A stretch of 24,928 nucleotides of DNA from a virus. This document shows, piece by piece, positions 2,232-22,584 of this stretch; the first letter of the stretch is position 1; each line of letters opens with the position of its first letter. The DNA is taken from the IMG/VR virus record IMGVR_UViG_3300038472_000103. One strand, written 5' to 3'. A model generated the notes under the pieces. It was not told the DNA's origin and did not search any database. It saw only the letters and a program-made list of their open reading frames with translations. The translations under genes were made by a program, and so were the position numbers.

Positions 2232-2468
2232 ATTTAGAGATTTTTGAACGCGGAAATTTAGCGTTTAGGTCTGAGGTGAAGCGTGGTGAGCGTGTTGTTA
2301 AGAATTACCATCATATTGATACTCCCACGCCTAAAGGCGGGAGATTCTAGGCGGCTAACGCCGCCCTTAACTGTTTCAACCAGCGCTGCTGGCTTTCGCC
2401 AGACTTACACACTGTCCGCAGTCGTTTAACGACTCCATGTATCCCAAGGCGTCGAGAATTCTTAATTC

Positions 2469-2699
2469 TTATTTCCCGAATGCAACATCCAGCATTGATT
2501 TAGCCAGCTTGGTTTTCGCAAGACCTTCAATGCTTGTAGCCTTCAATAAATACTCTCGTAGTTTATAATCTTCTTGATTATCTATCTTTTGATCATCAAG
2601 TTCCAGTGTATCAGGAAGTGTTATATCTGTCAACTGCAAAAGCAGCTCATCAAATACATGATCCAAATCCACATCGAATATGCTGCATTTGATGTACAT
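2469..2699 (-). CDS. hypothetical acidic small protein (76 aa)
   Basis: ORF with a D/E-rich C-terminal half. Lies between tRNA genes. No motif recognised. Confidence 0.4.
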   Translation of the reverse strand: MYIKCSIFDVDLDHVFDELLLQLTDITLPDTLELDDQKIDNQEDYKLREYLLKATSIEGLAKTKLAKSMLDVAFGK

Positions 2700-2706
2700 A
2701 AAAACC

Positions 2707-2783
2707 TGGTATCCTCGGTGGGACTCGAACCCACATTGCTCCTTTACGGTTACTCGTTTAGGAAACGAGGCCGGTACGAGGAT
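2707..2783 (-). tRNA. atypical tRNA-like gene (anticodon-like loop UUCCUAA = CCU, Arg-like); no canonical D arm
   Basis: Canonical acceptor (ATCCTCG/CGAGGAT), T-arm GTGGG/TTCGAGT/CCCAC and encoded ACCA. Internally a 5-bp stem CTCGT/ACGAG with loop TTCCTAA sits only 7 nt after the acceptor. It is followed by an 18-nt unpaired stretch. No standard D stem could be drawn. Confidence 0.45.
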
Positions 2784-2956
2784 GTCTAAACTTCCAAAAT
2801 TTCAATCCTGATCCGCCATTGCAGCAATTATTTCCGCATGTACGCATACAACCATCCAGCATTTGCATTGTGTACACCATTTCCAATAATGCGGAAAAAC
2901 TATAAGTGGCGGTTTTCTTTTGATGCACTTAAAACCTGGTATCCTCTACTCTAGTG

Positions 2957-3115
2957 TCATACTATCATACTTTTAATGGGTTGTTGTTTGCGCCCACGTT
3001 GGCAACCACATTTCAAGCAAGCAATAATCAAATTTACAGGCGGTTCGTTCTCGTCCTTCTGAACAGATTTCCAGTAGGTCGAATCACAAATCGGGCAATG
3101 TTTATCGAACATCAT
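2957..3115 (-). CDS. small zinc-ribbon protein (52 aa; CPIC...CLKCGC)
   Basis: Translated by hand as MMFDKHCPICDSTYWKSVQKDENEPPVNLIIACLKCGCQRGRKQQPIKSMIV. Two CxxC pairs. Below the 60-aa cutoff of the ORF track. Confidence 0.4.
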   Translation of the reverse strand: MMFDKHCPICDSTYWKSVQKDENEPPVNLIIACLKCGCQRGRKQQPIKSMIV

Positions 3116-3223
3116 ATCGGGTACTTCGGTTGAACTAGTCCATAAATTGGTAGTCCCTACCCTTTAAGCTGGGTCAGCACATCCGGGACCAGATGTGACA
3201 CGTAAAGGATCGTGTCAAAGCTT

Positions 3224-3769
3224 CTACGCTTCTAGTTCCACATTCCAATATAGCCAGGTTTCCCACTCTTTCCATTCTGGCCGTAGCTTGTTAATGTGAA
3301 GCTTGAAGTTGTACTTCGGATCGTCCTTCTTCGGCTCCACGGGCTGCTTAAGTAAGTGCATGCCAGCTTCCTTAGGTGTCTGACCGGCCTTACGCTTGTT
3401 GCAGCGCACACAGGCGAGCACCAAATTGGTCCATGAAGATACACCACCTTGAGAACGAGGCATTACGTGGTCAAGAGTATATTCCTGAGTCTTCAATACC
3501 CTACCGCAGTACTGACACCCGCTATTATCCCTAACCGCGATGTTGCGTCTGGAGAAAGGAACGGACAAACGCTTCCTACGAACCCAAGCGTTTTTGACAA
3601 CAATAACCCTTGGCATCTTCCATTCCAGAGAAGGAGACCGTAAAATGCGCCCACCCTCGTCTTCTTTGATAACTTGAGCACGCCCTTCATATATCAATTT
3701 CACAGCGTTCTGCCAGTTACAAAAAGACTGTGGTTGCCAGTTTTGGTCAAGAATTAAAGTGTCTGCCAT
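3224..3769 (-). CDS. HNH homing-type endonuclease (181 aa)
   Basis: HNH motif LDHVMPRSQGG...N...CVRCNKRK. Located inside the tRNA array, as is typical of phage HNH elements. Confidence 0.8.
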   Translation of the reverse strand: MADTLILDQNWQPQSFCNWQNAVKLIYEGRAQVIKEDEGGRILRSPSLEWKMPRVIVVKNAWVRRKRLSVPFSRRNIAVRDNSGCQYCGRVLKTQEYTLDHVMPRSQGGVSSWTNLVLACVRCNKRKAGQTPKEAGMHLLKQPVEPKKDDPKYNFKLHINKLRPEWKEWETWLYWNVELEA

Positions 3770-3838
3770 AATTTACCTTCCTTTCTAAGGAGTCTAAAAG
3801 CCTAAAACATTTTGCATTCTGCTCATACCCCCTAATAC

Positions 3839-4654
3839 TTACTTTCTCTCCAAAGCCTTTCGTTCCCGTCTGCTGAAAGCTTTAGGATTCGGAGGGTCAT
3901 TTTTCAATCCTGCTTTTTTCAGTTCTTTCCGGTTAAGCTGGCGTTTCGTGCTGATGTGCTCAGTCCATTTGATTAAGTAAAAAACCAAGGGCTCGCCTTC
4001 CTCGTTGACTTCGCCATCGATCTTGATGGCGTCATTGACCCGGAAATAGCCCGGACGAATCAGCGTCTTGCCCTCGTGCTTGATAGCGTAGTTCTCGCAG
4101 TAGTACCAGATGCCGTCGAACTTCTCGTAACGCCCGATGTCCGAAAGTCGAATCTCGGTGACGGGCTTTTCTTTCCTGGTGCGATTGCTGCGCCGCCATT
4201 CGCGCCATCCGCTGTACCCACTGTCGCACAAAATCCCGGTATATGGGTGGATATAATAATTATAGGGCTCAGTCAAATAGCCGCCACCACCGGCCCATTC
4301 TCGTACCTTTCCGTCAATGCACATCACAGTATTTTTGGCTACGAATTGCCAAAGATGAGTGAATACATGTAATCCAGTTACACTACGACGATCAAGGTTT
4401 TGACAAATTTCACTGTAGACATCATCCCAATGGCGTCCCACGCTTTTGTGGAGATAACCCTTTAATGGGTTGAGTACATCGCTAAGGTTTTTCCCGCAGT
4501 CATCTTGCCGATGTCGGGACATCGAAGCACGATATGGTTGATCATCGTAGTCCGAATCAGGGTTATATTTGAACCGCTTACCCCACTTCTGAGATCGGTT
4601 TTTTGAACCGTACCTCTCAGCTTCAGTGAGGAGTTTGGCCATGTCTGGGCGCAT
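3839..4654 (-). CDS. hypothetical protein (271 aa)
   Basis: Long ORF with GGAG upstream of the ATG. Basic C-terminus. No motif recognised. Confidence 0.55.
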   Translation of the reverse strand: MRPDMAKLLTEAERYGSKNRSQKWGKRFKYNPDSDYDDQPYRASMSRHRQDDCGKNLSDVLNPLKGYLHKSVGRHWDDVYSEICQNLDRRSVTGLHVFTHLWQFVAKNTVMCIDGKVREWAGGGGYLTEPYNYYIHPYTGILCDSGYSGWREWRRSNRTRKEKPVTEIRLSDIGRYEKFDGIWYYCENYAIKHEGKTLIRPGYFRVNDAIKIDGEVNEEGEPLVFYLIKWTEHISTKRQLNRKELKKAGLKNDPPNPKAFSRRERKALERK

Positions 4655-4741
4655 AGTTCTACCGCTCCTTTGCAGTATCTTAATGAGTATGCATATTTTG
4701 TACCTCCTGTTTTAAATTCATGTAGTTCATTTTACTTCTCC

Positions 4742-5012: not shown

Positions 5013-5088
5013 TGGTGCGCTGGGTGGGCAACGATCCCACAGCCTATCGATTAAGAGTCGAGTGCTCCGCCAATTGAGCTACCAACGC
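5013..5088 (-). tRNA. tRNA-Lys (anticodon CUU), CCA encoded
   Basis: Acceptor GCGTTGG/CCAGCGC. D-arm GCTCAATTGGCGGAGC. Loop CTCTTAA. T-loop ATCGTTG (non-standard). Confidence 0.65.
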
Positions 5089-5168: not shown

Positions 5169-5239
5169 TCCTCACGGTGGGGATCGAACCCACATCAGCG
5201 CCGTTAATGGCGCTGCTCTACCAATTGAGCTACGTGTAT
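5169..5239 (-). pseudogene. degenerate tRNA (71 nt)
   Basis: Perfect D-arm (GCTCAATTGGTAGAGC) and T-arm (GTGGG/TTCGATC/CCCAC). Acceptor pairs at only 4-5 positions. The anticodon hairpin AGCGCC/GGCGCT encloses ATTAAC, which is 6 nt rather than 7. No CCA. Confidence 0.45.
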
Positions 5240-5539: not shown

Positions 5540-5628
5540 TGGCTGGGACGGCATGATTTGAACATGCAGTGACCAAATTGGTCGCTGGGGTCAGAACCCA
5601 GTGGGGTTGCCGGTTTTCCTACGTCCCA
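5540..5628 (-). tRNA. type-II (long variable arm) tRNA with apparent anticodon CUG and discriminator G73
   Basis: 89 nt. Acceptor TGGGACG/CGTCCCA followed by G and CCA. T-arm GCATG/TTCAAAT/CATGC. Variable arm GACCA-ATT-TGGTC. Only one anticodon hairpin can be drawn: CTGGG/CCCAG with loop TTCTGAC. Confidence 0.5.
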
Positions 5629-5736: not shown

Positions 5737-5823
5737 TGGCTGTGGAGGAGGGTCTCGAACCCCCAGAGTCTTACGACACTGCATTAACAGTGCAGCCCGC
5801 TGCCAATTACGGTTTACTCCACA
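5737..5823 (-). tRNA. type-II tRNA with apparent anticodon GUU and discriminator G73
   Basis: 87 nt. Acceptor TGTGGAG/CTCCACA followed by G and CCA. 3-bp D stem CCG/CGG with a 10-nt loop. Anticodon hairpin CTGCA/TGCAG with loop CTGTTAA. Short variable hairpin GTC-GTAA-GAC. Confidence 0.5.
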
Positions 5824-6097: not shown

Positions 6098-6257
6098 CGT
6101 TCGAAGCGATGTTGACTATCCAGTTGCCGATGGAGGCGTGTTAAACTTTTCCAAAAATTCAAGCCAGTACCAATTGCGTTGGGACGCCGTTCTTTTCCGA
6201 TGACAATTGGCACAGCACTACTTAATACGAAAGTCAAACAAAGTTCGTAGTTAAACT

Positions 6258-6334
6258 TGGTAGTCCCAGTAGGATTCGAACCTACACTGATCCGCGTTCG
6301 TAACGCAGTTGACTCTCCAGTTGCCGATGGAACC
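6258..6334 (-). tRNA. tRNA-Arg (anticodon ACG), CCA encoded
   Basis: Acceptor GGTTCCA/TGGGACT with two G-U pairs. Anticodon stem CTGCG/CGCGG. Loop TTACGAA. T-arm GTAGG/TTCGAAT/CCTAC. The D stem is weak. Confidence 0.65.
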
Positions 6335-16001: not shown

Positions 16002-16095
16002 AATTTTATTTTGGTAGTGGGCCGGGGAGTTGAACCCACGCCGTCGCTCTAATCTGGAGCTTTCCCGAGTTTATAAGGCTCAGCCGCACACCAGT
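16002..16095 (-). tRNA. long (94-nt) tRNA-like gene; anticodon not assignable
   Basis: Acceptor GGTGGGC/GCCCACT followed by A and CCA. T-loop TTCAACT. No canonical anticodon arm could be drawn; the only candidate is GCTC-CAGATTA-GAGC, which lacks U33. The length is in the tRNA-Sec/Ser range. Confidence 0.4.
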
Positions 16096-16107
16096 GCTGC
16101 CCACCAC

Positions 16108-17370: not shown

Positions 17371-17820
17371 TTACTCTTCTGGACCTTCACCGACTTCGAT
17401 GAAGTCCATTAAATCTTCCCCACCAGCATATTTACTAGTGTTACCGCCTAGCCATCCGTTAAAAGCTCCCTGCTCTGTGGCTTTACGAATACCTTCAACT
17501 AAAAACAACCAGGCATCGTATGGCATGTCCCTGCGTAGATAGTTGCATCGCATACATGCTGGATTGACATTCGTCTTTAAATGACCTAAGCTATTATCTA
17601 TTCTATCCAAGGTCATCCTTATTTTTGTCTCTCCGCAGTAAAAACATCCATTGCTAATTTTATCCTTAATAAAGTCTTTGTCAAGATCATTTTCCCGAAG
17701 CAATTTTTTATCTGAGCTACGAGAATCTCGCCAAATAATGCTAGGTAAAAATTTAGGATCTTGCCTACGCCTTTTAGCCCAACGATGCCGTTTTTCCCTA
17801 CAAACTATTTTAGTGTCCAT
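17371..17820 (-). CDS. HNH homing-type endonuclease (149 aa)
   Basis: CFYCGE...LDRIDNSLGH...NPACMRCNYLRRDM is the T4-type HNH signature. Confidence 0.8.
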   Translation of the reverse strand: MDTKIVCREKRHRWAKRRRQDPKFLPSIIWRDSRSSDKKLLRENDLDKDFIKDKISNGCFYCGETKIRMTLDRIDNSLGHLKTNVNPACMRCNYLRRDMPYDAWLFLVEGIRKATEQGAFNGWLGGNTSKYAGGEDLMDFIEVGEGPEE

Positions 17821-18026: not shown

Positions 18027-18172
18027 TTGAACTTCTTTTTTAAATGCGGGTTCTCCCCCACATAAAGATTCTCAGGCTACGCTTGAATTTAATACTTCTA
18101 CGTTAACGCCTGATGGCTCGTTCCGAACCAACTACTCTTTATATAATACTGATAGTTGGAAAATTTGTCAAG
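18027..18172 (-). repeat. ~146-bp direct repeat, copy B: minus-strand sigma70 promoter + leader
   Basis: Near-identical to 7372-7516. -35 TTGACA (plus 18166-18171), 17-nt spacer, -10 TATTAT (plus 18143-18148). Confidence 0.85.
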
Positions 18173-18179
18173 ACTTATT

Positions 18180-22291: not shown

Positions 22292-22584
22292 CGTGATTTT
22301 AGGCGCGGAAACCCAGCAGTTATGCTGGGAGGAGCGCCGTCCTCCATGTGTTGAAACTCAGAAATGTGCAATCGTCTGGCTTGAAACTTTGTCCCCATCT
22401 CTTGCCTCTTCGACGGTTGCCTGCACAGAGGCTTGAGACTAGAGAAGCATCCCAAACATGCTCTGAGGAACCACCCTCAGCAGGCTAACTTTGCGGCTAT
22501 ACAAGCCCTACTTGTCTAGTACATAGGTTTAACTTGCTTCCACCTGTTGGTCAGGCTTCCCCAAGCCCAGACTTTAGTCTGGGT

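What the first reader, a model, noticed from the sequence alone, without database searches (positions are those of the whole stretch)
2707..3769. D-arm-less tRNA-like gene whose 3' 16 bp is duplicated 224 bp away, next to an HNH endonuclease
The 77-nt gene has perfect acceptor and T arms and CCA. An anticodon-like hairpin (loop UUCCUAA) sits directly after the acceptor. There is no D arm.

The sequence AAAACCTGGTATCCTC (tRNA 3' end plus 4 nt of flank) recurs at 2931-2946. The interval between the copies contains a 9-bp inverted repeat (TTCCGCAT/ATGCGGAA). A zinc-ribbon ORF and an HNH endonuclease gene follow.

Duplicated tRNA 3' ends are the footprint of site-specific insertion into tRNA genes, or of homing-endonuclease-mediated gene conversion.
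Basis: seen in the sequence. Interest (0 to 1): 0.55.

Follow-up and report, generated by a model that had tools for sequence, protein, structure and literature searches.

The report
Rewired, D-arm-less arginine tRNA of phages
The odd tRNA-like gene is not a broken tRNA: it belongs to a conserved family of phage arginine tRNAs that lack the usual D arm, a family also present but almost never annotated in Felix O1 and about 250 other cultured phage records.

Summary
Window 2707-2783 (- strand) has a 7-bp acceptor stem, a T arm, an encoded CCA and a UUCCUAA anticodon hairpin, but no D hairpin. The 16-mer occurs exactly twice.

The gene is not a one-off. I found 29 related genes in viral and MAG contigs, and more in cultured phages (Felix O1, Sugarland, Kamaji, BoomerJR, 7t3). 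All share one plan:
- acceptor stem, then U8 A9
- a short covarying "helix A" that encloses the anticodon arm
- a D-loop-like A-N-N-G-G-A connector
- T arm

98% of paired cells form standard pairs, against 70% in shuffles. Helix A shows G-C, C-G, A-U and U-A exchanges. Every anticodon is arginine (CCU, CCG, UCU, UCG). In 20 of 21 loci no canonical tRNA carries the same anticodon. I read this as a functional, structurally rewired tRNA-Arg(CCU); charging and decoding are inferred.

The second 16-mer copy lies in a 342-bp segment (2796-3137). Three near-identical strains have it and eight lack it, with three linked SNPs at the junctions. The repeats do not bound the segment, and the HNH gene is conserved in all strains and in distant relatives. 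This is therefore a recombination scar, not an integrase att duplication.

The parts
2707..2783 (-). Non-canonical tRNA-Arg(CCU) gene, 77 nt. It belongs to the D-arm-less (rewired) tRNA-Arg family.
   Evidence: Sequence. Family model R1 scores 93 bits, the best hit of all, while canonical tRNAs score about 43 bits or less. Rfam tRNA gives 36.6 bits only with the D arm deleted. ARAGORN finds nothing.
2777..2783 (-). Acceptor stem, 5' strand (AUCCUCG). It pairs with 2711-2717.
   Evidence: 7 of 7 Watson-Crick pairs in the window. All 7 pairs show double changes across the family.
2771..2776 (-). U8 A9, a bulged C, then the 5' strand of helix A (CGG).
   Evidence: CGG pairs with CCG at 2747-2749. 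The family shows CGG/CCG, CGA/UCG, CUC/GAG, CCC/GGG, CGC/GCG, CAG/CUG, CGU/ACG, AGU/ACU and CCG/CGG. RNAalifold predicts this helix on its own.
2753..2769 (-). Anticodon arm CUCGU-UUCCUAA-ACGAG. The anticodon CCU lies at 2760-2762.
   Evidence: Sequence. All 5 stem pairs covary in the family.
2745..2749 (-). 3' strand of helix A (CCG), followed by U A.
   Evidence: G-U-A was fixed by my search pattern for the CCU members found by pattern. Members found by model or BLAST, which were not selected on it, carry it too.
2735..2744 (-). Purine-rich connector AAGGAGCAAU carrying the D-loop-like motif A-(N)-(N)-G-G-A.
   Evidence: GGA is present in the connector of 28 of 29 family members. It resembles the D loop AACUGGAUA of the window's canonical tRNA-Arg genes. 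Reading it as G18 G19 A20 is inference.
2707..2734 (-). T arm (GUGGG UUCGAGU CCCAC), acceptor 3' strand (CGAGGAU), discriminator A and encoded CCA.
   Evidence: Sequence; pair counts.
2701..2716 (+). Copy 1 of the 16-mer: the last 10 nt of the tRNA plus 6 nt of 3' spacer (GGTTTT on the - strand).
2931..2946 (+). Copy 2 of the 16-mer, inside the strain-variable segment. Diverged similarity continues to about 2917, matching 2686-2700 of the resident copy.
   Evidence: The extension was read from the sequence by eye.
2796..3137 (.). Strain-variable 342-bp segment. Present in the window, L001 and L007. Absent from L002-L006, L014, L015 and L019.
   Evidence: There is no homology at the junctions and no target-site duplication. 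No other copy exists in the held sequences.
3140..3140 (.). SNP linked to the indel, 3 nt outside the left junction. Two more linked SNPs lie at 2788 and 2785, which are 5 and 2 nt upstream of the tRNA 5' end.
   Evidence: On the - strand the long allele reads ATGGAC|...|GGAAGTTTAGAC and the short allele ATGAAC|GGAAGTTGAGCC.
2957..3115 (-). 52-aa CxxC...CxxC ORF inside the variable segment. It may be a remnant of an HNH zinc knuckle and is probably not a real gene.
   Evidence: Translation. No homologue in the 5.8-billion-protein database, and no gene is listed there for the public contigs. VNLIIACLKC resembles VNLVLACIRC of the HNH family: hhalign probability 37%, tblastn E = 0.001 in a very small search space.
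3224..3769 (-). HNH endonuclease gene (181 aa), resident and conserved.
   Evidence: Pfam and PHROG hits. Present in all strains. 85%, 70% and 65% identical in L009, L010 and L016.
2469..2699 (-). 76-aa ORF that starts 7 nt after the tRNA. It is conserved in L009 and L018, and its start is part of the duplicated junction.
   Evidence: A 5-bp insertion in most short-allele strains cuts it to 56 aa.
2831..2897 (.). 9-bp inverted repeat (2831-2839 / 2889-2897) inside the variable segment.
   Evidence: Sequence. The fold is not better than shuffles.

Best explanation
Window 2707-2783 (- strand) encodes a non-canonical arginine tRNA with anticodon CCU. It sits in the tRNA array of an uncultivated, probably large phage from peat or soil metagenomes.

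It belongs to a conserved family of phage tRNA-Arg genes whose D and anticodon domain is wired differently from the cloverleaf. After U8 A9 comes a 3-bp covarying helix (helix A) that encloses the anticodon arm. The D-loop-like sequence (A-N-N-G-G-A) follows on the 3' side and connects to the T arm. Total length stays at 76-84 nt.

Proposed working, step by step:
- The gene is transcribed with the array and trimmed at an ordinary acceptor and T minihelix. CCA is encoded. (Inferred.)
- It folds with helix A stacked on the anticodon stem. The relocated G-G contacts the T loop as G18 G19 do in normal tRNAs. (Inferred.)
- Host ArgRS charges it through C35, U36 or G36, and the A that follows G-G, equivalent to the A20 identity element. 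(Inferred from established tRNA-Arg identity rules.)
- It reads AGG, the one arginine codon family for which this array has no canonical tRNA. (Inferred from the isoacceptor pattern.)

Shown here: conservation, covariation, restriction to arginine anticodons, and isoacceptor complementarity.

The duplicated 16-mer is a separate and lesser matter. Its second copy lies in a 342-bp strain-variable segment just upstream of the gene. That segment holds scraps of the local gene order: an HNH-like zinc-knuckle fragment, then the tRNA 3' end with its spacer, then the start of the downstream ORF. It is most likely debris from recombination or gene conversion with a diverged relative in an endonuclease-rich tRNA array. 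It is not an att site.
For: 1. Family.
- Pattern scans of IMG/VR and GTDB, followed by a covariance model, gave 29 distinct genes with the same plan in 21 loci.
- One is L016 7865-7943, in a relative of the window phage. Compared with the window it has compensatory changes in the acceptor stem (1:72), helix A (CGG/CCG to CGA/UCG) and the anticodon stem (31:39).

2. Covariation.
- In the 14-sequence MAFFT alignment, 99.4% of cells are paired against 73.9% in shuffles (0 of 500 shuffles reach it). 17 of 22 pairs have double changes. The covariation score is 0.79, against 0.146 or less when the partners are slid.
- In the 29-sequence alignment, 98.3% are paired against 70.2%.
- Helix A pair counts: G-C 21, A-U 4, C-G 2, U-A 2; and G-C 13, A-U 6, C-G 4, U-A 2.
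- These helix A columns were N in my search patterns, so they were not selected for. RNAalifold recovers helix A on its own.

3. Separation from ordinary tRNAs. Family members score 49-93 bits on model R1, with the window highest. Canonical tRNAs in the same arrays score about 43 bits or less.

4. Arginine only. The anticodons are CCU, CCG, UCU and UCG.

5. Complementarity.
- In 20 of 21 loci no canonical Arg tRNA with the same anticodon is present.
- The window has canonical UCU, CCG, GCG, ACG and UCG but no CCU.
- Felix O1 has canonical ACG only, plus a non-canonical UCU.

6. Syntenic slot. The relatives L009, L018 and L010 carry a canonical tRNA-Arg(CCU) in the same place.

7. D-loop-like motif. 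GGA is in the connector of 28 of 29 members.

8. Cultured phages.
- The Felix O1 type occurs in 252 records at 80% coverage or more. These are mostly Escherichia, Salmonella and Klebsiella phages, with a few Streptomyces, Serratia and other records.
- Five of these genes, from five phages, have anticodon stems that differ by compensatory changes.

9. A published tRNAscan-SE 2.0 table for Shigella phage Sf14 lists Arg_TCT with an Arg isotype score of 82.6, between Ile_GAT and Ser_TGA (PMC12482277). That is the syntenic position of the Felix O1 gene. I infer it is the homologue from order and loop sequence; I did not check the sequence.

10. Codon use. AGG makes up 25 of 230 Arg codons in the window's long ORFs.

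11. Indel and linked SNPs.
Against: - No expression, processing, aminoacylation or decoding data exist for any member. Everything after "conserved structured RNA with arginine anticodons" is inference.
- No tRNA without a D hairpin is known to work on bacterial ribosomes. [quoted passage not shown]
- My first CCU members were found with patterns that fixed the anticodon loop, G-U-A-A and the T loop. Conservation at those positions is partly built in.
- Most loci are partial contigs, so a canonical isoacceptor could lie outside the stretch held.
- One locus (L044) has both a canonical and a non-canonical UCU gene.
- The tertiary model (G-G to T loop, A20 equivalent) is not tested. The two subclasses suggest different junction topologies.
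- For the 342-bp segment, no donor sequence was found. The direction of the event (insertion or deletion) is not settled. Its similarity to HNH is weak.
Confidence: 0.68

Rival explanations
1. The family is a tRNA mimic rather than a decoder. It would be a structured RNA that keeps the acceptor and T minihelix and an arginine anticodon arm. It would act as a decoy or inhibitor for a host factor that recognises tRNA-Arg, for example an anticodon nuclease, a toxin or a sensor. Or it could be a nuclease-resistant stand-in whose real value is defence evasion.
For: - The fold departs from what EF-Tu, the ribosome and the modification enzymes normally see.
- The window also encodes RNA-repair-type proteins: RlaP at 8956-9789, and a HAD_PNKP gene in L001. 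Phage tRNA clusters are known counter-measures to tRNA-cleaving defences (PMC13096335).
- Only the four rarer anticodons occur in this form, never ACG or GCG.
Against: - A decoy needs neither isoacceptor complementarity with the canonical tRNAs of the same array, nor an encoded CCA and a perfect 7-bp acceptor stem in nearly every member.
- Relatives hold an ordinary tRNA-Arg(CCU) in the same slot.
Confidence: 0.2
2. The gene is a decayed pseudogene of tRNA-Arg(CCU). It would have lost its D arm and gained junk in the variable region through imprecise repair next to a homing endonuclease.
For: - Relatives L009 and L010 have a canonical gene in the same slot.
- ARAGORN and default Rfam miss the gene.
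- There is an endonuclease gene and an indel next to it.
Against: - The same architecture recurs in 29 or more diverged genes, with compensatory changes in every helix including the new one.
- It is conserved from Streptomyces phages to enterobacterial phages.
- It fills the missing isoacceptor slot.
Confidence: 0.03
3. One reading: the two 16-mers are att-type direct repeats left by site-specific integration of an element, including the HNH gene, into the 3' end of a tRNA gene.
For: An exact 16-bp repeat includes a tRNA 3' end. Presence and absence polymorphism exists nearby.
Against: - The variable segment is 2796-3137. Its ends are not at the repeats and share no homology.
- The fragment copy lies upstream of the intact gene, not downstream as an integrative element would leave it.
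- No integrase was found among the ORFs scanned.
- The HNH gene is outside the variable segment and is present in both alleles and in distant relatives.
Confidence: 0.03
4. The 16-mer recurs because it is a functional signal rather than a scar. It could be a tRNA 3'-processing or spacer signal (CCA followed by G-U-U-U-U) or a translation-initiation region for the ORF that follows each copy.
For: - Spacers of the form CCA-(A)GUUUU-G recur between tRNAs in other arrays, such as L026 and L025.
- Each copy is followed within 1-2 nt by a start codon (ATG at 2699, GTG at 2928).
Against: - Only two copies exist in 25 kb holding about 21 tRNA genes, even allowing 3 mismatches.
- The match includes 6 nt of a gene-specific acceptor strand.
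- The ORF after copy 2 has no homologues, runs into the tRNA gene, and is missing in the eight short-allele strains.
Confidence: 0.1

Closest known systems
Canonical bacterial and phage tRNA-Arg (Rfam RF00005 tRNA)
   Same: 7-bp acceptor stem, discriminator, CCA, a 5-bp T stem with a UUCGANU loop, and a 5-bp anticodon stem with a 7-nt loop (U33, purine 37). It has arginine anticodons, lies in a tRNA array, and has the same overall length.
   Different: There is no D hairpin between positions 9 and 27. A new helix forms between nt 11-13 and the three nt that lie 3 nt past the anticodon arm. The D-loop-like A-N-N-G-G-A lies 3' of the anticodon arm, where the variable loop should be. The gene scores at or below the detection limit of standard tools.
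Mitochondrial tRNAs that lack the D arm, such as metazoan tRNA-Ser(AGY/UCU) and nematode tRNAs (reviewed in PMC7609411)
   Same: No D hairpin, but the acceptor, anticodon and T arms are kept. ARAGORN's mitochondrial mode reports a D-replacement-loop tRNA with anticodon CCU here, although with a different and poorer fold.
   Different: The mitochondrial tRNAs are shortened (about 55-65 nt), have an unstructured replacement loop and no G18 G19, and depend on specialised mitochondrial factors. The phage family is full length, keeps a G-G-A motif and adds a covarying helix. It occurs in viruses of bacteria.
Circularly permuted tRNA genes of Cyanidioschyzon merolae (Soma and colleagues; cited in PMC10085705)
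   Same: The order of tRNA segments along the gene differs from the cloverleaf order.
   Different: In those genes whole halves are swapped, and processing through a circular intermediate restores a normal tRNA. In the phage family the 5' and 3' ends are normal and the rearrangement is internal, so the mature RNA itself should be non-canonical.
Non-canonical tRNAs found in metagenomes: allo-tRNAs and the 8/4 and 9/3 tRNAs (PMC5389517)
   Same: They are natural tRNA variants from bacteria and their phages that standard tools score poorly.
   Different: Those change the lengths of the acceptor and T stems but keep all four arms in order. The phage family loses the D hairpin and rewires the core.
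Free-standing homing endonucleases in phage tRNA clusters: T4/T6 SegB (PMC2330249, PMC13096335) and, from my own knowledge, the T5 HNH enzymes
   Same: An endonuclease gene sits among tRNA genes. A neighbouring segment is present or absent between strains, with linked flanking markers. Partial duplicates of tRNA-gene junctions occur. HNH genes also directly follow the non-canonical tRNA-Arg in Felix O1, Sugarland and Kamaji.
   Different: The window's HNH is conserved in all strains and relatives and lies outside the variable segment. The variable segment holds no intact endonuclease gene. The HNH proteins next to family members in different phages are unrelated beyond the motif. No cleavage data exist.

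Membership tests
tRNA (Rfam RF00005 cloverleaf) | 7-bp acceptor stem, discriminator base and a 3' CCA (encoded or added) | tested here: met
   AUCCUCG/CGAGGAU, A, CCA.
tRNA (Rfam RF00005 cloverleaf) | T arm: 5-bp stem and a 7-nt UUCRANY loop | tested here: met
   GUGGG UUCGAGU CCCAC.
tRNA (Rfam RF00005 cloverleaf) | Anticodon arm: 5-bp stem and a 7-nt loop with U33 and purine 37 | tested here: met
   CUCGU UUCCUAA ACGAG.
tRNA (Rfam RF00005 cloverleaf) | D arm hairpin between positions 9 and 26 | tested here: not met
   Only 5 nt lie between U8 A9 and the anticodon stem. The Rfam alignment deletes the D arm. ARAGORN finds nothing.
tRNA (Rfam RF00005 cloverleaf) | Score at or above the family's gathering threshold | tested here: inconclusive
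   36.6 bits against 29 with relaxed filters, but not reported by the default gathering scan. Other family members score 31.7-40 bits or are missed.
Rewired (D-hairpin-less) phage tRNA-Arg family, defined here (model R1) | Helix A: nt 11-13 pair with the three nt that begin 3 nt past the anticodon arm, with covariation | tested here: met
   The window has CGG/CCG.
Rewired (D-hairpin-less) phage tRNA-Arg family, defined here (model R1) | Connector between helix A and the T stem that carries A-N-N-G-G-A | tested here: met
   The window has UA-AAGGAGCAAU. GGA is present in 28 of 29 members.
Rewired (D-hairpin-less) phage tRNA-Arg family, defined here (model R1) | Arginine anticodon, and a place inside a phage-type tRNA array | tested here: met
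   Anticodon CCU; 20 ARAGORN tRNAs in the window; family anticodons.
Rewired (D-hairpin-less) phage tRNA-Arg family, defined here (model R1) | Arginylation and use in translation | not testable with these tools
   This needs tRNA-seq or acid-gel Northern blots and ArgRS assays.
Integrase-mediated insertion into a tRNA gene (att duplication) | Direct repeats of the tRNA 3' end lie exactly at the two ends of the inserted element | tested here: not met
   The variable segment is 2796-3137, while the repeats are at 2701-2716 and 2931-2946.
Integrase-mediated insertion into a tRNA gene (att duplication) | An integrase or recombinase gene inside the element | tested here: not met
   The segment holds only a 52-aa ORF with no significant Pfam match (best E = 0.025, below threshold). 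No integrase was found among the 19 ORFs scanned.
Free-standing homing endonuclease cassette | Endonuclease domain (HNH, GIY-YIG or LAGLIDADG) | tested here: met
   HNH_5 E = 1.6e-14.
Free-standing homing endonuclease cassette | Sporadic presence of the endonuclease gene among close relatives | tested here: not met
   It is present in all 11 strain contigs and in L009, L010 and L016, at 65-85% identity.
Free-standing homing endonuclease cassette | Presence or absence of neighbouring DNA with co-converted flanking markers | tested here: met
   A 342-bp indel with three perfectly linked SNPs within 11 bp of the junctions.
Free-standing homing endonuclease cassette | Cleavage of the allele that lacks the insert | not testable with these tools
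   This needs purified enzyme and the short-allele junction as substrate.
Mitochondrial-type D-arm-lacking tRNA | Shortened molecule with an unstructured D-replacement loop and no G18 G19 | tested here: not met
   The gene is 77 nt, with an extra covarying helix and a conserved GGA.

The most novel reading that the evidence does not exclude
Phages of bacteria encode and use a class of arginine tRNAs whose core is wired differently from the universal cloverleaf. The anticodon arm is carried on a helix that starts right after U8 A9. The D-loop sequence, with G18, G19 and the ArgRS identity base A20, is moved to the 3' side. In one subclass the anticodon hairpin is nested inside a D-stem-like helix (21 of 22 pairs at fixed offsets). 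If these RNAs are charged and decode on bacterial ribosomes, they are the first natural non-cloverleaf tRNAs of a bacterial translation system. They may have been selected because the new core escapes host enzymes that attack tRNA-Arg.
Probability: 0.5. Interest if true: 0.9.

Novelty: new variant of a known kind. Interest (0 to 1): 0.8.

Why it matters
The cloverleaf with its D arm is treated as universal outside mitochondria. [quoted passage not shown]

This family would be a natural exception:
- It is restricted to one amino acid.
- Compensatory changes preserve it across phages of Actinobacteria, Enterobacteria and uncultivated hosts.
- It is present in 252 cultured phage records, including Felix O1, a classic typing phage. 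In 33 of the 40 sampled records nothing is annotated at the site, 4 show an overlapping CDS (3 of them HNH), 2 records carry no annotation at all, and one calls it tRNA-OTHER. Phage 7t3 labels it tRNA-TERM.

It matters in four ways:
- It bears on how much of the tRNA core ArgRS, EF-Tu, RNase P and the ribosome really need. This can be tested directly in E. coli or Salmonella.
- It shows that phage tRNA counts, and codon-usage arguments built on them, are incomplete.
- It offers a natural scaffold for orthogonal tRNA engineering.
- It may be a route by which phages escape tRNA-targeting defences.

The original question about the 16-bp repeat matters much less. It documents ongoing recombination around tRNA genes in an endonuclease-rich array.

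Tried and rejected
- Near-identity BLAST of 2400-4700 against cultured phages found nothing. This phage and its tRNA are absent from IMG/VR.
- The single metagenome scan, anchored on the downstream ORF, returned only another short-allele strain.
- L015 looked like an intermediate relative. It is the same phage with assembly frameshifts.
- The 52-aa zinc-ribbon ORF has no homologue and no significant Pfam match. It is not similar to the zinc-ribbon ORF after the L010 tRNA. Only a 10-16-residue resemblance to the HNH zinc knuckle was seen, which is too weak to count as shown.
- I looked for other copies or a donor of the 342-bp segment in the window and the held loci. Only the 16-mer matched.
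- I tested whether the inverted repeat or the HNH-tRNA spacer forms a significant RNA structure. They do not (z = -0.11 and -1.16). No terminator was found and promoter-like sites are at background level.
- I tried to fit a canonical cloverleaf by treating the CCU hairpin as a D arm or by assuming an intron. No pairing supports either, and ARAGORN with introns or relaxed thresholds gives nothing sensible.
- I considered that AAGGAG-CA-AUG in the connector is a ribosome-binding site. I rejected this because the spacing is 0-6 nt across the family and the AUG is simply A-U plus the first G of the T stem.
- I considered a conserved partnership between a particular HNH enzyme and the non-canonical tRNA. 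I rejected this because the adjacent HNH proteins are unrelated.
- Literature searches (10 queries) found no description of a D-arm-less or internally rearranged tRNA in phages or bacteria. The library holds open-access papers only, so absence is not proof.
Full report
**1. The observation**

The - strand of window 2707-2783 reads:

ATCCTCG TA C CGG C CTCGT TTCCTAA ACGAG TAA CCG TA AAGGAGCAAT GTGGG TTCGAGT CCCAC CGAGGAT A CCA.

The acceptor stem (7 bp), T arm, anticodon-type hairpin (loop UUCCUAA, anticodon CCU) and CCA are all intact. Only 5 nt separate U8 A9 from the anticodon stem, and 18 nt separate that stem from the T stem.

Standard tools handle the gene poorly:
- ARAGORN finds 20 tRNA genes in the window, all on the - strand, but not this one. 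It also fails with introns allowed or relaxed thresholds.
- Rfam's default scan misses it.
- With relaxed filters the Rfam tRNA model reaches 36.6 bits (cut-off 29), but only by deleting the D arm and inserting 15 nt.

The 16-mer is exact at 2701-2716 and 2931-2946 and occurs nowhere else in the window. It consists of the last 10 nt of the tRNA plus 6 nt of spacer. Weaker similarity continues for about 19 nt into the start of the downstream ORF.

The inverted repeat exists but is not structurally significant. The zinc-ribbon ORF and the HNH gene are real ORFs. On the coding strand they lie upstream of the tRNA-like gene.

**2. Source and strain variation**

The exact HNH protein is encoded on many metagenome contigs: the index lists it in 156 blocks, and 21 contigs were read (ENA WOOD18 and k141 assemblies, JGI 3300033822).

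The gene content includes RlaP, a PNKP-like HAD protein, a vault-protein-like ORF, transporters and many tRNAs, all on one strand. Distant homologues of a neighbouring gene lie on contigs of 340-373 kb. Together this suggests a large phage.

The strains are about 99.9% identical over 13 kb or more. They differ by one large indel:
- Window 2796-3137 (342 bp) is present in the window, L001 and L007.
- It is absent from L002-L006, L014, L015 and L019.

The junctions share no homology. Three SNPs (3140, 2788, 2785) lie within 11 bp of the junctions and are perfectly linked to the indel.

The variable segment contains the zinc-ribbon ORF, the second 16-mer and the inverted repeat. The tRNA-like gene and the HNH gene lie outside it and are identical in both alleles.

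**3. Relatives**

I used homologues of the 271-aa neighbouring gene to fetch more distant genomes.
- L009 and L018 (75% protein identity) have HNH, then a 79-aa ORF with a weak GIY-YIG resemblance (E = 0.021), then a canonical tRNA-Arg(CCU), then the same downstream ORF, then tRNA-Arg(UCU), Lys and Lys.
- L010 (53%) has HNH followed directly by a canonical tRNA-Arg(CCU).

So the window gene occupies the tRNA-Arg(CCU) slot. CCU is also the only arginine anticodon the window's array lacks in canonical form.

The HNH protein is 85%, 70% and 65% identical across these relatives, more conserved than its neighbour.

Between the window and L009 most tRNA genes are 95-100% identical. Three slots, Arg(ACG), Lys(CUU) and Arg(CCU), hold unrelated genes with the same anticodon. 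tRNA cassettes are therefore being exchanged in this phage group.

**4. The turning point: a family**

I searched IMG/VR for the 17-nt anticodon arm. This returned two unrelated viral contigs (L025 and L026, 105 and 93 kb) with genes of exactly the same plan, each sitting next to a second such gene with anticodon CCG.

A looser pattern returned 18 loci, nearly all of which conform: anticodon loop, 10 free nt, GTAA, a gap, then the T loop. One further member lies in L016, a relative of the window phage. It shows compensatory changes in the acceptor stem, the new helix and the anticodon stem.

The common plan is:
- acceptor stem (7 bp)
- U8 A9
- one bulged nt (two in a second subclass)
- three nt, X Y Z
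- one nt
- anticodon arm
- three nt (eight in the Felix O1 type)
- Z' Y' X'
- U A
- a connector holding A-N-N-G-G-A and usually ending in A-U
- T arm, then the acceptor 3' strand, usually followed by CCA

**5. Covariation**

On a plain MAFFT alignment of 14 genes:
- The proposed structure has 99.4% of cells paired, against 73.9 +/- 1.5% after shuffling (0 of 500 shuffles reach it).
- 17 of 22 pairs show double changes.
- The covariation score is 0.79, against 0.146 or less when partners are slid by 1-3 columns.

RNAalifold independently predicts the new helix, 11-13 with 35-37.

I built covariance model R1 from this alignment. It scores family members at 49-93 bits, with the window highest. 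The many canonical tRNAs in the same arrays score about 43 bits or less.

Aligning the 29 members gives 98.3% paired against 70.2%. Helix A pair counts are:
- G-C 21, A-U 4, C-G 2, U-A 2
- G-C 13, A-U 6, C-G 4, U-A 2, other 4

These helix A columns were free (N) in my patterns.

In the 11 members with two extra nt after U8 A9, those two nt pair at a fixed offset with two nt of the connector. This holds in 21 of 22 cases, with three pair types, against 4-16 of 22 when slid. That gives a D-stem-like helix B enclosing both the anticodon hairpin and the G-G-A strand.

**6. Identity**

Every member has an arginine anticodon: CCU, CCG, UCU or UCG.

In 20 of 21 loci, ARAGORN finds no canonical arginine tRNA with the same anticodon in the stretch held. 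Canonical ACG, GCG and others are usually present.

GGA is in the connector of 28 of 29 members. The stretch U-A-A-N-U-G-G-A resembles the D loop of the window's own canonical tRNA-Arg genes, AACUGGAUA.

From established identity rules, A20 in the D loop and C35 with U36 or G36 are the main ArgRS determinants in bacteria. G18 and G19 dock on the T loop.

My reading is that the D-stem strand and D loop have been moved to the 3' side of the anticodon arm, so these elements are kept while the hairpin is lost. This explains why about 12 nt are missing 5' of the anticodon arm and 13 extra nt appear 3' of it at unchanged total length. It is inference, not a tested structure.

**7. Distribution**

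The same pattern run over 596 Gb of bacterial and archaeal genomes gave only three true loci. All are tRNA arrays on MAG contigs: Bryobacterales, a Saccharofermentanales contig with three members in tandem, and a 1.5-kb fragment. The class is essentially one of phage-type tRNA arrays.

BLAST and R1 then found it in cultured phages:
- Felix O1 (AF320576.1 25951-26032, anticodon UCU, 54.9 bits). It is unannotated in both GenBank and RefSeq, where an HNH ORF is drawn over its 3' end.
- Jumbo phage 7t3, where it is labelled tRNA-TERM.
- E. coli phage AMO3598, Klebsiella phage Sugarland, Serratia phage Kamaji and Streptomyces phage BoomerJR, all unannotated.
- 252 records in total at 80% coverage or more.

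The anticodon stems of these five genes all differ by compensatory changes.

Felix O1's only canonical tRNA-Arg is ACG.

A published tRNAscan-SE 2.0 analysis of the related phage Sf14 lists Arg_TCT with a high Arg isotype score at the syntenic place (PMC12482277). So some pipelines call the gene, apparently without noting its shape. I inferred that homology from gene order and loop sequence only.

With Rfam at the gathering threshold, members score 31.7-40 bits or are missed.

**8. The repeat and the indel, re-read**

The second 16-mer is not an att site. On the - strand the variable segment contains, in the normal gene order:
- a zinc-knuckle fragment that weakly resembles the HNH motif
- 10 nt of spacer
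- the last 10 nt of the tRNA plus its spacer
- about 14 nt resembling the start of the downstream ORF
- about 120 nt of unrelated sequence

This looks like a heavily deleted, diverged second copy of the local HNH, tRNA and ORF module.

Endonuclease-driven recombination in phage tRNA clusters is well documented. T4 SegB recognises the T-arm motif of tRNA genes and drives co-conversion of the region (PMC2330249). SegB also causes unstable segmental amplification of tRNA loci (PMC13096335).

The linked junction SNPs fit exchange with a diverged partner. I could not find a donor, and the direction of the event is open.

HNH genes also abut family members in Felix O1, Sugarland and Kamaji, but those proteins are unrelated to each other. 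The association reflects the general crowding of homing endonucleases in tRNA arrays.

**9. Verdict**

- The integration reading is not supported.
- The gene-conversion reading is plausible for the 342-bp segment only.
- The important result is that the "D-arm-less tRNA-like gene" belongs to a conserved, covarying, arginine-specific family of non-cloverleaf tRNA genes, widespread in phages and largely unannotated.
- Function as a decoder is likely but unproven. A decoy role is the main rival.
- I found no prior description in the open-access library, which cannot exclude one elsewhere.

Noticed in passing
window 5169-5239 (-); L009 1443-1513: ARAGORN reports a tRNA of unknown identity with a two-base anticodon. 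It has a short anticodon loop, an imperfect acceptor stem and no CCA, yet scores 44.5 bits on the Rfam tRNA model. It is conserved in relative L009 with 4 changes.
   Followed up: partly
window 5540-5628 and 5737-5823 (-): tRNA-Gln(CUG) (89 nt) and one tRNA-Asn(GUU) (87 nt) carry long variable arms, normally a feature of Leu, Ser and Tyr tRNAs. The long tRNA-Gln is also found in L009, L010 and L016. The long tRNA-Asn is found in L009 (87 nt), and L016 has an 84-nt tRNA-Asn.
   Followed up: partly
window 6258-6334 and 5013-5088, compared with L009 388-463 and 1583-1670: Most tRNA genes are 95-100% identical between the window phage and L009. Arg(ACG) and Lys(CUU) are unrelated sequences with the same anticodon (Lys is 76 nt in the window and 88 nt in L009). 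This points to slot-wise replacement of tRNA cassettes.
   Followed up: partly
L026 1046-1122, L025 6114-6189 (-), L033 1748-1823, L058 1650-1929, L016 9163-9243: Several arrays carry two or three rewired tRNA-Arg genes in tandem with different anticodons (CCG, UCG, UCU, CCU).
   Followed up: yes
L026 about 490-670 and L025 about 6200-6290 (-): Further tRNA-like sequences lie in these arrays that ARAGORN does not call. One is a CAU-loop gene at L026 494-568, which scores 29.8 bits on Rfam. Other non-canonical tRNA classes may be hiding in phage arrays.
   Followed up: no
window 18027-18178 and about 7372-7522: A stretch of about 150 bp is repeated within the window at about 95% identity. It appeared as a secondary BLAST match.
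   Followed up: no
window 8001/8002, 8830-8835, 2535, 1782-1784: Small strain-specific indels of 30, 6, 5 and 3 bp. The 5-bp insertion at 2535 shortens the ORF downstream of the tRNA from 76 to 56 aa in most short-allele strains, but not in L019.
   Followed up: partly
window 10066-12546 (-): An 826-aa ORF matches the major vault protein shoulder and repeat domains (MVP_shoulder E = 3.6e-26). This is unusual for a phage-like genome.
   Followed up: no
window 8956-9789 (-) and L001 288-521: An RlaP-type nucleotidyltransferase and a HAD_PNKP-like gene, both of RNA-repair type, lie next to the tRNA array.
   Followed up: no
window 17371-17820 (-): A second nuclease-like ORF (endonuclease VII / HNH PHROG families) sits between tRNA-Ser genes.
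   Followed up: no
window 16014-16107 (-) and 22331-22591 (-): Weak Rfam matches below threshold: tRNA-Sec-like (27.4 bits) next to tRNA-Leu, and HEARO RNA (26 bits, E = 0.085).
   Followed up: no
Felix O1 NC_005282.1 26003-26395; Sugarland MG459987.2 41379-41888; Kamaji ON287373.1 4451-5014: In three cultured phages an annotated HNH endonuclease gene starts within about 10 nt after the rewired tRNA-Arg(UCU) or overlaps its 3' end. The annotated Felix O1 start overlaps the tRNA and is probably too far upstream.
   Followed up: partly
L009 4104-4343 and L018 922-1161: In the closest relatives a 79-aa ORF occupies the spot where the window has its 342-bp variable segment. Its match to the SegE GIY-YIG domain is weak (E = 0.021). 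This intergenic site seems to collect endonuclease-related inserts.
   Followed up: partly
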